44,752 nt of DNA, taken from the NCBI GenBank assembly GCA_038058485.1, contig JBBUBA010000012.1, positions 1-44,752 on the forward strand, written 5' to 3'. Each line of letters starts with the position of its first letter. Within the stretch, counting starts at the first letter, position 1. The notes below the pieces were generated by a model. It was not told the DNA's origin. It saw only the letters and a list, made by a program, of their open reading frames with translations, and made no database searches. Shown here piece after piece: positions 1-2,797 of this stretch. This DNA comes from Patescibacteria group bacterium (GTDB taxonomy: Bacteria > Patescibacteriota > Minisyncoccia > Phycocordibacterales > Zambryskibacteraceae). The translations under genes and the position numbers were made by a program.

Positions 1-51
1 AGTAATCGCGGGTCAGCTATACCGCGGTGAATACGTTCTCAAGTCTTGTAC

Positions 52-944
52 TCAGCCGTAAGGCGCTGGGCAGGTAATAAATCTAAGTTGTTGAAATCAA
101 CTCCTCCGGAATATCTCTGGAGCGTAGTGAACGGGTAATCTGCATACCGTGAGGTGGCAGGTGAAGGATCCTAGTAGCAAAAAGCAGTCCATTCAAAAAA
201 GAGGGGTACGACCCATTGGGTGAGTAATGGGGAAGTGCCACAAAAACCTCGAATGGAATGCAGGGAATAGAGTTATTATTGACCCCAGGAGATCTCAGGG
301 TGGACGAAGTAGTTGTCCACATGAGAAGTCAGCTGCGTCGTAGTACCACTCGTCAACTTAATGTTATAATTGAGTAACGCATGGGAAGGACAAAACCGAT
401 AGTTTCGAAGGATTACATTGTTGGATTGACTGATGGAGAGGGGTGCTTTTATGTTAATACATGGAAGTCTTCTTCATACAAAGCAGGGTATGGAGTTCAA
501 ATGCACTTTCATCTGAAAATGCAAGAGAAGGATAAGCCCTTACTTGAGAAAATCAAAAACACTCTTGAATGTGGCGCGGTGTACTTTCAGAAAGAACAGC
601 GCGTTAACCATTCTCAGTGTTATAGATACACAGTCAGTTCTCAGAAAGATATAATAGAAAGTATTATTCCTTTCTTCCAACAATATCCCTTGCAAAGTGT
701 TTCTAAACGAAGAAGTTTCTTAATTTTCTGTCGAATTGCCAAACTTGTTCAGTCAGGTAGGCATTTGACAGAGAGTGGAGTGAAACAAATTCAAACACTG
801 AAGTCGAGGATGAACCAGAGAACTATTGGACTCGCGTAGTGCGGGAAATCCGCACGCTACGTTCCGTCACCATGCCGACACATGGCCGGATCCTAACACT
901 TGTTTAGTACATGTTAGGAGGGAACGCGAAACAAAAATTATCGC
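52..944 (+). mobile_element. Intervening sequence in 16S rRNA (putative self-splicing, group I-like intron); boundaries +/- a few nt
   Basis: The conserved 16S sequence breaks after CTTGTAC (51) and resumes near 945 (..AATCCGCCCGTC). The ~890-nt insert carries a homing endonuclease ORF. I did not fold the ribozyme core. Confidence 0.75.
381..839 (+). CDS. LAGLIDADG homing endonuclease (single-motif type), intron-encoded
   Basis: The N-terminal YIVGLTDGEGCF motif is a LAGLIDADG dodecapeptide. Size is 152 aa, and the ORF lies wholly inside the rRNA insertion. Confidence 0.9.
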   Translation: MGRTKPIVSKDYIVGLTDGEGCFYVNTWKSSSYKAGYGVQMHFHLKMQEKDKPLLEKIKNTLECGAVYFQKEQRVNHSQCYRYTVSSQKDIIESIIPFFQQYPLQSVSKRRSFLIFCRIAKLVQSGRHLTESGVKQIQTLKSRMNQRTIGLA

Positions 945-1188
945 AATCCGCCCGTCAACTCAAGGGAGATGGGAGTACCCGAAGTTCCCGCCTAGCGGGA
1001 CCCACGGTAAGCTCATCGACAGGGAGTAAGTCGTAACAAGGCACGGGTAGCGGAAGCTGCTCGTGGAGTAATTCAATTTGAAAATCTTTTGCCAAAAGCA
1101 AAGGTGACAGAGTCGATATCTATCGAAAGGTGGATGGACAATTATCACAAAGTCCTAAAATGTGATATGACACTTAGGAAAGACTAGT

Positions 1189-1213
1189 GAACGGAGCAAA
1201 ACAGAGAACGATA
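1189..1213 (+). repeat. 25-nt conserved box GAACGGAGCAAAACAGAGAACGATA, copy 1
   Basis: Identical 25-mer recurs at 2797-2821. Both copies sit just upstream of a GNRA-loop terminator hairpin followed by TTTTGTGTTG. Confidence 0.8.
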
Positions 1214-1215
1214 GC

Positions 1216-1243
1216 AAAACCGCCGAAAGGCGGTTTTGTGTTG
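1216..1243 (+). terminator. Intrinsic terminator downstream of 16S
   Basis: AAAACCGCC-GAAA-GGCGGTTTT hairpin followed by a T-rich tail. Confidence 0.7.
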
Positions 1244-1297
1244 CAATCCTAGCTAGGGATGGTAAGCTTTACTGATACTAATAATCAATTTTAAATC

Positions 1298-2797
1298 ATG
1301 AAGCGTCTTGTTATGGGTCTTGTTCTAGTCTTTCCTTTGTTTGTTTCTGCACAATTAACAATTCTCACTATTCCCACTTCCTCTGTACTTCCAAATGCAA
1401 AGGTTGGGCAATCATATTCTGTGGCGTTGAATGTTTCTGGTGGAGACGGCTCAAATTATAGCTGGAGTGTAGATGGTGGGGCAGCCGCATTCCCAGTGAC
1501 TGGTTTAGGTTTTAGCTCTACGTATGGAAATCAGATCTACATCACTGGCACTCCAGCAAAGATTTATGTTGGAGGGGTCGAACAAACGACTCCCCGTACT
1601 TTCACCTTTAATGTTTCTGTAACCTCTGGTTCTCAAAGCTATACTAAGCAGTTTACTTTAACAGTAGATCCGGCGATAACTTCAGCACCTACTGTATCTT
1701 TAGGAAATCCGACATATTATTCTAATGGCACTGCATATATGTCTTGGAGTGCTACAAATGTGACTTCTTGCACGGCGCTGAAGGAAGGAGGATTTCACTC
1801 CTTAATACTAGATTTACCGACTAATCAAACTAGCTTCGGCCCAAATTATTTTATTGCTGATAGTAACGGAAATTATTCGATTAGATGTACCGGGCCAGGG
1901 GGAACAGCGGTTTCAAATTCTGTGGTAGTTTCTTCTAGCTTACTACCGACTCCAATTCCTACTATTACAGTTGCTCTTTCTGCAAACCCATCAATTATTA
2001 CAGCTGGGCAATCAGTAACCATAACTTGGTCTTCAACCAATGCCGTAAGTTGTGGCCCAACAGAAAAGGACGGAAGATGGAATCCCGGTTCAGAAACTTC
2101 TGGTTATATAACCGTAAGTCCAACTCAGACCACTACATACACTATTCTTTGTCATAGTCAGACTGAAAGTATTCTGGCTGCAAATCAGCCATTATCTGTA
2201 ACCAAAAGTGTGACCGTTGTTGTTACATCAGCAACTTCTCCAGTGGATCCTGCTATTAGATCCCAGATGGCAAATGCTCGGGCACAAGCAGAGTTGTATT
2301 ATGATACCCATAATAATAGCTATGCTGGGGTATGCACTAACAGCGGAGGAGTATATTCGTTTATGGCTAATGCTGCCCAACAACTTTCTTCAGGAAATGT
2401 CGTTGGATATAATGCCATTCCATTTTCCTACAATGCTTCTGGTGCTAGTGGATCTTCAGTTTGTCACGACGGCGCTGGTTCTTGGGCGGCCATTACTTCC
2501 TTGAAAAATCCTACCACTGCAAACTCCGGCCACTGTGTCGATTCTACAGGGGTTTCTAGGGAAGCAACATCTTTGCCGGCTTACGCAACTTCTTGTCCAG
2601 GTTCTTCTACTCAAGCTCCCGCTTACACCCCACCCGTAACAACTACGGTCTCTCCAGCTAGCCTAACCACCATGTCTGATGCGCAGAGACAATCGATGAT
2701 AATGCAACTCCAACAGTTATTAGCCTCACTTCTTCAGCAACTTATCCAGCTCCTACAACAACAGGCTGCTACGGCAATAATGAGTCAATCGCGCTAG
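1298..2797 (+). CDS. Secreted surface protein with Ig-like repeats, a Cys-containing pilin-like globular domain and a Gln/Leu-rich C-terminus
   Basis: Signal peptide MKRLVMGLVLVFPLFVSAQ. He_PIG-like segment (VGQSYSVALNVSGGDG..YSWSV..ITGTP). ARAQAELYYD..SYAGVC ... HCVDSTG resembles pilin head domains. Tail is QLQQLLASLLQQLIQLLQQQ. Confidence 0.85.
   Translation: MKRLVMGLVLVFPLFVSAQLTILTIPTSSVLPNAKVGQSYSVALNVSGGDGSNYSWSVDGGAAAFPVTGLGFSSTYGNQIYITGTPAKIYVGGVEQTTPRTFTFNVSVTSGSQSYTKQFTLTVDPAITSAPTVSLGNPTYYSNGTAYMSWSATNVTSCTALKEGGFHSLILDLPTNQTSFGPNYFIADSNGNYSIRCTGPGGTAVSNSVVVSSSLLPTPIPTITVALSANPSIITAGQSVTITWSSTNAVSCGPTEKDGRWNPGSETSGYITVSPTQTTTYTILCHSQTESILAANQPLSVTKSVTVVVTSATSPVDPAIRSQMANARAQAELYYDTHNNSYAGVCTNSGGVYSFMANAAQQLSSGNVVGYNAIPFSYNASGASGSSVCHDGAGSWAAITSLKNPTTANSGHCVDSTGVSREATSLPAYATSCPGSSTQAPAYTPPVTTTVSPASLTTMSDAQRQSMIMQLQQLLASLLQQLIQLLQQQAATAIMSQSR

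What the first reader, a model, noticed from the sequence alone, without database searches (positions are those of the whole stretch)
1066..1090. 16S 3' tail lacks the CCUCC anti-Shine-Dalgarno sequence
Helix 45 is intact (CACGGGTAGC-GGAA-GCTGCTCGTG, 1042-1065). The tail that should read GAUCACCUCCUUA instead reads GAGUAAUUCAAUU. No CACCTCC occurs between the hairpin and the terminator at 1216. Loss of the anti-SD is rare in bacteria. It fits the near-total absence of SD motifs upstream of the native genes in this window.
Basis: seen in the sequence. Interest (0 to 1): 0.6.

Follow-up and report, generated by a model that had tools for sequence, protein, structure and literature searches.

The report
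Parcubacterial 16S without anti-Shine-Dalgarno
This ultra-small uncultured bacterium (Parcubacteria/Paceibacteria) really has a 16S ribosomal RNA whose tail has lost the sequence that normally docks ribosomes onto messenger RNAs. Its genes instead start directly at their promoters, but the loss was already published for this group in 2022.

Summary
Helix 45 is intact at 1042-1065. The tail reads GGAGUAAUUCAAUUUGAAA where bacteria normally have GGAUCACCUCCUUA. No CUCC or CCUCC occurs anywhere in the pre-rRNA 3' part (1041-1300). That part is closed by a leader/trailer processing stem (1188-1214) and a terminator-like hairpin.

This is not a local defect. The core GGA-R-UA-W-UUCAA is conserved in 137 related species of the same order of Paceibacteria. 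Other families of the class carry canonical or other decayed tails. Complete relatives have only one 16S gene.

- Upstream regions in this genome show no Shine-Dalgarno (SD) enrichment: 5.4% against 5.2-5.8% in control positions, and 23% against 1-5% in E. coli with the same script.
- The new tail has no complementarity to mRNAs at any position.
- A TATAAT-like -10 box peaks exactly 12 nt before start codons (7.3-fold), the signature of leaderless mRNAs.
- Era, which binds GAUCACCUCC, was not found.
- In two same-order genomes prfB has no SD-dependent frameshift.

The loss is already published (Tsurumaki et al. 2022, RNA 28:1041). This scan has noted the same thing in many other Parcubacteria genomes.

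The parts
1..54 (+). 16S rRNA exon 1, cut by the contig end. It corresponds to about E. coli 1337-1394 and ends in ...CUUGUACUCA.
   Evidence: Rfam SSU_rRNA_bacteria aligns from model position 1337. Relatives without the insertion read CTTGTACTCA|CCGCCCGTCA.
55..948 (+). 894-nt insertion (intron-like) in the 16S gene, between the positions equivalent to about 1394 and 1395.
   Evidence: The exon junction was inferred from the uninterrupted 16S genes of G272, G180, G078 and G244. No group I or group II model reached its threshold.
381..839 (+). LAGLIDADG homing endonuclease ORF (152 aa) inside the insertion.
   Evidence: Pfam PF00961 LAGLIDADG_1, E = 7.5e-26. A TATAAT box lies upstream of its ATG.
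949..1041 (+). 16S exon 2: CCGCCCGUCA..., helix 44, and the AAGUCGUAACAAGG linker.
   Evidence: Sequence. It is 85-96% identical to 50 relatives.
1042..1065 (+). Helix 45, with 10 base pairs and a GGAA loop at 1052-1055.
   Evidence: All 10 pairs are kept in 20 sequences, and one pair changes GC to CG on both sides.
1066..1085 (+). Variant 3' tail GAGUAAUUCAAUUUGAAAAU, in place of GAUCACCUCCUUA. It has no anti-SD and is predicted to be unpaired.
   Evidence: The core GGA-R-UA-W-UUCAA is conserved in 137 loci.
1086..1104 (+). Trailer hairpin 1 (CUUUUGC-CAAAA-GCAAAGG). Its sequence and length are hypervariable among relatives.
   Evidence: Every relative has a hairpin here, but with a different stem sequence.
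1110..1150 (+). Conserved GAGUCGAUAU box, and the region where relatives carry trailer hairpin 2. In this window the hairpin itself is shortened.
   Evidence: In the relatives, the RNAalifold helix at columns 80-122 of alignment A1 has 8 pairs with compensatory changes on both sides.
1188..1214 (+). 3' strand of the pre-16S processing stem. It pairs with the 16S leader on contig C33, at positions 27-72 of the minus strand.
   Evidence: RNAduplex gives -40.6 kcal/mol, against -18.7 +/- 3.9 for 300 shuffles. A comparable stem forms in 29 of 32 relatives.
1216..1243 (+). Terminator-like hairpin, AAAACCGCC-GAAA-GGCGGUUUU followed by GUGUUG.
   Evidence: Seen in the sequence. The consensus scan did not call it.

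Best explanation
The window holds the 3' end of the single 16S rRNA gene of a Paceibacteria (Parcubacteria, CPR) bacterium. In this bacterium's order the anti-Shine-Dalgarno tail has been replaced by a different, conserved, A+U-rich tail, GGA-R-UA-W-UUCAA(UUUGAAA). The ribosome therefore cannot form an SD/anti-SD helix.

Translation initiation has shifted to SD-independent routes. Most first genes of transcription units have their -10 promoter box 6-7 nt before the start codon. Their mRNAs would then begin at or next to the AUG, which is leaderless initiation. Internal genes are probably started by coupling or re-initiation at overlapping or abutting stop and start codons.

Shown here:
- absence of CCUCC in the tail and in the whole pre-rRNA 3' part;
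- clade-wide conservation of the variant tail;
- a single rrs in complete relatives;
- no SD enrichment upstream of genes;
- no complementarity between the new tail and mRNAs;
- the position of the -10 box.

Inferred, not shown:
- that transcripts really start at the AUG;
- where the mature 16S 3' end lies;
- that internal genes use coupling.
For: Tail and helix 45.

Same tail in relatives: 29 of 29 close relatives and 137 loci titled Paceibacteria, Nomurabacteria or Zambryskibacteria.

No hidden anti-SD: 3 of 131 relatives have any CCTCC within 300 nt downstream, at inconsistent positions. The leader/trailer stem closes the pre-rRNA at 1188-1214. G272, G180 and G078 have one 16S gene each, and G272's 16S has no insertion at all.

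Distribution in the class: 78 of 301 sampled genomes have the canonical tail, this variant is found mostly in the window's own order, and many other decayed tails exist.

SD usage:
- G000 5.4% against 5.2-5.8% in controls.
- G272 5.4% against 3.6-5.6%.
- E. coli 23% against 1-5% with the same script.
- Mean duplex energy with ACCUCCUUA is weaker upstream of starts (-1.95) than elsewhere (-2.4 to -3.0) in G000, but -4.59 against -2.4 in E. coli.

New tail against mRNA: |z| <= 0.6 at all positions from -60 to +140, compared with shuffled tails.

-10 box: the TATAAT-like hexamer peaks at -12 (53 hits against 3.2 per background position). Over -14 to -11 that is 18.8% of genes in G000 (7.3-fold) and 28% in G272.

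Era (TIGR00436) is not found above its cut-off in any of five Paceibacteria genomes searched. YbeY and a four-domain S1 protein are present.

prfB of the same-order genomes G272 and G207 is in one frame, without the SD-stimulated frameshift.

Literature: Tsurumaki et al. 2022 found the anti-SD motif in only 48% of Parcubacteria (PMC9297842). Era recognises GAUCACCUCC (PMC10582724). A Pribnow box 6-8 nt from the start codon defines GeneMarkS-2 'group C' leaderless genomes (PMC6028130).
Against: - No RNA data.
- The MAG is 87% complete. The middle of its 16S and its 23S are not assembled, so a second rrs cannot be excluded in this genome itself.
- About 4% of G000 genes carry good SD-like motifs at the right distance, with a small positional peak at -11 to -8. 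These genes are G+C-richer than the rest.
- G078 is a complete genome of another family that also lacks CCUCC. AGGAGG-type motifs are still enriched there: 10.5% against 3%. SD-like signals therefore do not track the tail perfectly.
- G244 has a canonical tail but uses SD in only about 10% of genes and also shows some -10 box enrichment. The move away from SD may have preceded the loss of the anti-SD.
- My gene starts come from a simple ORF rule, which dilutes all signals.
Confidence: 0.85

Rival explanations
1. A functional anti-SD exists elsewhere. Candidates are a second, unassembled 16S copy with a canonical tail, an intervening sequence after helix 45 whose removal restores CCUCC, or an anti-SD-like stretch supplied from the insertion (window 95-107, AAUCAACUCCUCC).
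For: The MAG is incomplete and its rrs is split over contig ends. Rfam's local alignment placed the model's 3' end on 95-107. A few genes carry good SD motifs. G078 shows SD-like enrichment without a visible partner.
Against: The complete or near-complete relatives G272, G180 and G078 have a single 16S gene. G272 has the same tail, no insertion, and no suitable CCUCC. Only 3 of 131 relatives have any CCTCC within 300 nt downstream, at inconsistent positions. The pre-rRNA is closed by the leader/trailer stem with no CUCC inside it. The 95-107 motif lies in a mobile LAGLIDADG insertion that relatives lack. There is no net SD enrichment in G000 or G272.
Confidence: 0.05
2. The new conserved tail is an alternative anti-SD. 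It would pair with a co-evolved, non-canonical motif in 5' leaders or just downstream of the start codon.
For: Twelve or more nucleotides after helix 45 are nearly invariant across 137 species, while the adjacent hairpin is hypervariable. The tail is predicted to be single-stranded.
Against: Duplex energies between the tail and 20-nt windows from -60 to +140 do not differ from those of shuffled tails, with |z| <= 0.6. Mean energy at -20 to -1 is not lower than in controls, in G000 or in G272. The enriched upstream k-mers are TATAAT-type promoter words, not complements of the tail.
Confidence: 0.04
3. The conserved stretch after helix 45 is not part of the mature rRNA at all. It would be a processing signal in the 120-nt structured trailer, and the mature 16S would end at or a few nucleotides after helix 45.
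For: The trailer between helix 45 and the processing stem is long (about 120 nt) and contains conserved boxes and hairpins with covariation. YbeY, the 3'-end maturation nuclease, is present.
Against: The conserved block is about as long as the normal mature tail (12-13 nt), and it keeps the two adenines of GAUCA (GAGUA). Tail-leader complementarity is not above chance: the longest match averages 6.8 nt against 6.1 nt in shuffles, at inconsistent positions. Under this reading too the mature rRNA has no anti-SD, so it changes only the role of the conserved block.
Confidence: 0.2

Closest known systems
Anti-SD-less subgroup of Parcubacteria (Tsurumaki, Saito, Tomita, Kanai 2022, RNA 28:1041; PMC9297842)
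   Same: Same lineage and same observation. The CCTCCT motif at the 16S 3' end was detected in only 48% of Parcubacteria, and the lineages without it overlap the group that lacks uL1. uL1 is also not found here.
   Different: That paper reports only absence of the motif. It does not describe the conserved replacement tail of this order, the range of decayed tails across the class, the lack of pairing between the new tail and mRNAs, or the -10 box at -12. Here uL1 is also missing from a class member with a canonical tail, G244.
Bacterial genomes rich in leaderless transcripts (GeneMarkS-2 'group C': Actinobacteria, Deinococcus-Thermus; Lomsadze et al. 2018, PMC6028130)
   Same: The Pribnow box lies 6-8 nt before the start codon of first genes in operons. 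The fraction of genes affected is comparable: 19-28% of all genes here, against 25-50% of operons there.
   Different: Group C organisms keep a canonical anti-SD and use SD sites on their leadered and internal genes. This lineage has no anti-SD and shows no SD enrichment.
Bacteroidetes/Flavobacteria (GeneMarkS-2 'group B')
   Same: SD motifs precede only about 3% of genes (PMC6028130).
   Different: Their 16S keeps the standard anti-SD (PMC6028130), and they use an A-rich leader motif about 9 nt from the start rather than a promoter at the start codon.
Mammalian mitochondrial 12S rRNA
   Same: The small-subunit rRNA lacks the anti-SD (stated in PMC10582724). From general knowledge, the mRNAs are leaderless.
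   Different: Mitochondria keep an Era homologue (ERAL1) that binds helix 45 (PMC10582724). No Era was found in these genomes.

Membership tests
Bacterial 16S rRNA 3' minor domain | Helix 44, the AAGUCGUAACAAGG linker, and helix 45 with a GGAA loop carrying the two dimethyl-adenosine positions | tested here: met
   Window 949-1065. Helix 45 has 10 pairs and a GGAA loop.
Bacterial 16S rRNA 3' minor domain | 3' tail GAUCACCUCCUUA containing the anti-SD CCUCC | tested here: not met
   The tail is GAGUAAUUCAAUU. There is no CUCC in 1041-1300.
Anti-SD-less Parcubacteria (Tsurumaki 2022) | Belongs to Parcubacteria/Paceibacteria | tested here: met
   119 or more public contigs with the same helix 45 and tail are titled Paceibacteria, Nomurabacteria, Zambryskibacteria or Parcubacteria. 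The genome is 0.5 Mb.
Anti-SD-less Parcubacteria (Tsurumaki 2022) | CCTCCT motif absent from the 16S 3' end | tested here: met
Anti-SD-less Parcubacteria (Tsurumaki 2022) | Overlap with the uL1-lacking group | tested here: met
   PF00687 was not found in G000, G272, G207, G078 or G244, and was found in all 14 control genomes. G000 is 87% complete; the four other genomes are 100% complete.
Leaderless-rich bacterial genomes (GeneMarkS-2 group C) | -10 (Pribnow) box located 6-8 nt upstream of the start codons of first genes | tested here: met
   The hexamer start peaks at -12, with 53 hits against 3.2 background; enrichment over -14 to -11 is 7.3-fold. The same script gives 1.2-fold in E. coli.
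Leaderless-rich bacterial genomes (GeneMarkS-2 group C) | Transcripts experimentally start at the start codon | not testable with these tools
Leaderless-rich bacterial genomes (GeneMarkS-2 group C) | Remaining (leadered or internal) genes use SD-type ribosome-binding sites | tested here: not met
   No SD enrichment in G000 or G272.

The most novel reading that the evidence does not exclude
The strictly conserved, single-stranded 12-19 nt that replaced the anti-SD (GGA-R-UA-W-UUCAA-UUUGAAA) is kept in the mature 30S subunit and has gained a function of its own. It might fill the cleft where the SD helix normally sits, or bind a lineage-specific protein, so as to favour 5'-terminal-AUG (leaderless) mRNAs. 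It would then be more than a decayed remnant or a processing signal. A related open point is that something other than the 16S tail may read the AGGAGG-type sites. These sites persist in a few G+C-rich genes here and in about 10% of genes of the anti-SD-less complete genome G078.
Probability: 0.15. Interest if true: 0.65.

Novelty: already known. Interest (0 to 1): 0.3.

Why it matters
SD/anti-SD pairing is the textbook way bacterial ribosomes find start codons, and complete loss of the anti-SD is rare. A large free-standing branch of bacteria that lacks it, and places promoters directly at start codons, is a natural experiment in SD-independent initiation.

It also has a practical consequence. 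Gene finders that rely on ribosome-binding-site models will misplace starts in these genomes.

The basic fact is published, so this window adds detail rather than a discovery. The details are an order-specific conserved replacement tail, a graded series of decayed tails across the class, no evidence that the new tail pairs with mRNAs, and loss of the SD-dependent prfB frameshift in same-order genomes.

Tried and rejected
1. Hidden anti-SD in the insertion. Rfam aligned its 3' end to 95-107. I rejected this because relatives without the insertion have the same tail and no such motif.

2. Second rrs or a 23S gene in the MAG. Motif scans and RF00177 found only the 27F site at the end of C33, plus this window.

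3. CACCTCCT-type hits elsewhere in G000. They lie in or beside protein-coding sequence with no rRNA-like context. Two of them look like SD sites of genes on the opposite strand.

4. Tail pairing with the 16S leader. The longest complementarity averages 6.8 nt against 6.1 nt in shuffles, at inconsistent positions. Rejected.

5. Tail pairing with mRNA 5' regions or with early coding sequence. No signal.

6. The ATCACCTCCAT inside G078's 16S gene. It lies in an unrelated insertion about 700 nt upstream of helix 44, so it is a coincidence.

7. The prfB frameshift test in G000 itself. The gene is cut by the end of contig C18, so I used the same-order genomes instead.

8. RNA-seq mapping.

9. Full-length RNAduplex of 300-nt flanks gave a meaningless end-to-end duplex. 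I repeated it on short segments.

Full report
**What is in the window.**

The window is the whole of contig C12 of a 507-kb, 48-contig MAG that is 87% complete. It begins inside the 16S rRNA gene.

- Bases 1-54 match the bacterial SSU model from position 1337.
- Bases 55-948 are an 894-nt insertion that encodes a LAGLIDADG endonuclease (381-839; Pfam PF00961, E = 7.5e-26).
- The gene resumes at 949 with CCGCCCGUCA, helix 44, the AAGUCGUAACAAGG linker, and helix 45 at 1042-1065.

I set the exon junction from four relatives with an uninterrupted sequence at this site, which read CTTGTACTCA|CCGCCCGTCA. The rest of the 16S is not assembled. Only its first 20 bases sit at the end of contig C33, and no 23S motif was found in the MAG.

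**The observation.**

After G1066 the sequence is AGUAAUUCAAUUUGAAAAU, where E. coli has AUCACCUCCUUA. No CCTCC, CTCC or CCTC occurs between 1041 and 1300. The only CCTCC in the first 1400 bases is at 103, inside the insertion.

**It is a lineage trait, not a defect of this gene.**

A search of 60 relatives found the helix 44 to tail region in 50 of them, aligned through the tail. All 29 loci read in full have GGAGUAAUUCAA(U/G)U....

A pattern scan of public genomes returned 119 or more contigs, titled Paceibacteria, Nomurabacteria, Zambryskibacteria or Parcubacteria. Over 137 loci the core GGA-R-UA-W-UUCAA is conserved, and what follows is more variable.

In a sample of 301 genomes of the class:
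- 78 have the canonical GGAUCACCUCC.
- This variant is found mostly in the window's own order.
- Many other families carry other decayed, A+U-rich tails. Examples are GGAUCAUCUCC, GGAUUUUCUCCUUUUAAGGA, GGAUUAUAUUCAUUAAA, GGAGUUUAAUUUUUAAUUUU and GGAACAUUUCUUUUUAGGGA.

The anti-SD has therefore eroded repeatedly, or stepwise, within Paceibacteria.

*Second rrs.* None was found in this MAG, but the MAG is incomplete. G272 is from the same order, has 2 contigs and is 100% complete. G180 is also from the same order. G078 is from another family and is a single 651-kb contig. Each of the three has exactly one 16S hit. G272's gene is 1.5 kb, has no insertion, and has the same tail.

*Second intron after helix 45.* The 16S leader on C33 pairs with window 1188-1214 at -40.6 kcal/mol, against -18.7 +/- 3.9 for shuffles. 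This is the usual pre-16S processing stem. A terminator-like hairpin follows at 1216-1243, and a protein gene starts at 1298. Nothing inside this closed unit contains CUCC. Among 131 relatives with at least 300 nt downstream, only 3 have any CCTCC, at unrelated positions.

Rfam's local alignment of its 3' end to 95-107 (AAUCAACUCCUCC) is an artefact. That stretch lies in a mobile insertion which relatives lack.

**The trailer.**

An alignment of 20 trailers shows these elements in order:
- helix 45, with one compensatory change;
- a fully conserved, unpaired tail;
- a hairpin whose sequence and length differ in every species (window 1086-1104);
- a conserved GAGUCGAUAU box;
- a second hairpin, with 8 pairs showing changes on both sides.

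The trailer is thus about 120 nt of structured RNA inside the processing stem. The tail has no above-chance complementarity to the leader.

**Do the genes use SD sites?**

I called genes with a simple ORF rule and compared positions -18 to -4 with control positions, using the same script on five genomes.

| Genome | 16S tail | SD 5-mers at -18 to -4 | Control positions |
|---|---|---|---|
| G000 (this genome) | variant | 5.4% | 5.2-5.8% |
| G272 (same order) | variant | 5.4% | 3.6-5.6% |
| G244 (another family) | canonical | 9.7% | 2.1-2.9% |
| G078 (another family) | no CCUCC | 10.5% | 2.6-3.3% |
| E. coli (100 kb) | canonical | 23% | 1-5% |

In E. coli the 4-mer count is 41%. Mean duplex energy with ACCUCCUUA is weakest just upstream of starts in G000 (-1.95, against -2.4 to -3.0 elsewhere). 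In E. coli it is -4.59 against -2.4.

In the window itself, 4 of 41 called genes have an SD-like motif, and two of them lie in the 18-23 kb cassette region. Genome-wide, about 20 genes carry good SD-like motifs. These genes are G+C-richer than the rest (0.457 against 0.389, p = 7e-4) and have longer upstream gaps. This agrees with the scan's earlier notes on this genome.

**Is the new tail an alternative anti-SD?**

No evidence for it. Duplex energies between AGUAAUUCAAUUUGAAA and 20-nt windows from -60 to +140 do not differ from those of 20 shuffled tails, with |z| <= 0.6. The k-mers enriched upstream of starts are not complements of the tail.

**What replaces SD.**

The k-mers enriched at -20 to -1 are TATAAT, GTATAA, TATAAA and similar words. 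A TATAAT-like hexamer, with at most one mismatch and with A2 and T6 fixed, starts at -12 in 53 genes, against 3.2 per background position. Over -14 to -11 it covers 18.8% of genes in G000 (7.3-fold), 28% in G272, 20% in G078, 7% in G244 and 2% in E. coli.

A -10 box spanning -12 to -7 relative to the A of ATG places the transcription start at the start codon. This is the defining layout of leaderless-rich bacteria (GeneMarkS-2 group C; PMC6028130). The difference is that those organisms keep their anti-SD.

Many other genes overlap or abut the preceding gene; the median gap is 35 nt and the lower quartile is 4 nt. That fits coupling or re-initiation, which is inferred here, not shown.

**Supporting gene content.**

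- Era, which binds GAUCACCUCC and the base of helix 45 (PMC10582724), has no match above its cut-off in any of five Paceibacteria genomes.
- YbeY and a four-domain S1 protein are present in all five.
- uL1 is not found in any of the five.
- bS21 is not found in G000 and gives only sub-threshold matches in three of the others.
- In the same-order genomes G272 and G207, prfB is a single frame without the SD-stimulated +1 frameshift, and it has a -10 box 7 nt before its ATG.
- G000's own prfB is cut by a contig end.

**Prior knowledge.**

Tsurumaki et al. (2022, RNA 28:1041; PMC9297842) state that the anti-SD motif was detected in only 48% of Parcubacteria and that the lineages lacking it overlap the uL1-lacking group. 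The core of this finding is therefore published.

In the searched library I found no paper that holds both 'leaderless' and 'Parcubacteria'. The only relevant paper that holds 'leaderless' and 'Patescibacteria' mentions leaderless translation only in connection with YchF.

This scan has already recorded the same tail loss, and the same -10 box layout, in many other Parcubacteria genomes. I reached both conclusions from my own computations before reading those notes.

**Limits.**

The mature 3' end and the transcription starts are therefore inferred. My gene starts are heuristic. G078 shows that SD-like motifs can persist without a visible partner, and this remains unexplained.

**Verdict.**

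The phenomenon is clade-wide and already known. Interest is modest.

Noticed in passing
window 1189-1213 and 2797-2821: The 25-nt 3' strand of the 16S processing stem is repeated exactly just after the stop of ORF 1298-2797 (499 aa, no Pfam hit). Each copy is followed by a similar terminator-like hairpin (1216-1243 and about 2866-2893). It looks like a gene cassette captured between two copies of a short stretch, as earlier notes describe elsewhere in this genome.
   Followed up: partly
G078:C1 (loci L176-L195, L198; 16S at 389679-391800, minus strand): A complete single-contig Paceibacteria genome of another family has one 16S gene, with tail GGAGUUUCAAUUUUAAUUUU and no CCUCC within 300 nt. 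AGGAGG-type motifs still peak at -14 to -10 in about 10% of its genes, against 3% at control positions. This is an SD-like signal with no visible partner.
   Followed up: partly
G078:C1:560560-561591 (L222): prfB keeps the CUU UGA C +1 frameshift site. The site is preceded by a G+C-rich hairpin (GGUCCGCCGCGCGGCGGGCC) rather than by an SD-like element.
   Followed up: no
G272:C2:251852-252712 (L224); G207:C3:82176-83057 (L225): In same-order genomes prfB is in one reading frame, is short at the N-terminus, and has a -10 box 7 nt before its ATG.
   Followed up: partly
window 55-948: An 894-nt insertion with a LAGLIDADG endonuclease ORF splits the 16S between the positions equivalent to about 1394 and 1395. 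No Rfam group I or group II intron model reached its threshold. A weak group-II-D1D4-1 match at 305-391 (20.6 bits, E = 0.47) is probably chance.
   Followed up: partly
window 1086-1150 and relatives L002-L030: The roughly 120-nt trailer between helix 45 and the processing stem is structured and partly conserved. It holds a hypervariable hairpin, a GAGUCGAUAU box, and a second hairpin with covariation. I did not look for a published description of it.
   Followed up: partly
G000 genome-wide, position -11 from start codons: The word CTTCTAA peaks at -11 (10 genes).
   Followed up: no
window 1216-1298; contig C33: The 16S gene is not followed by a 23S gene. It ends in a terminator-like hairpin and a protein gene follows, so the rRNA genes appear to be unlinked. 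No 23S motif was found in the MAG.
   Followed up: no
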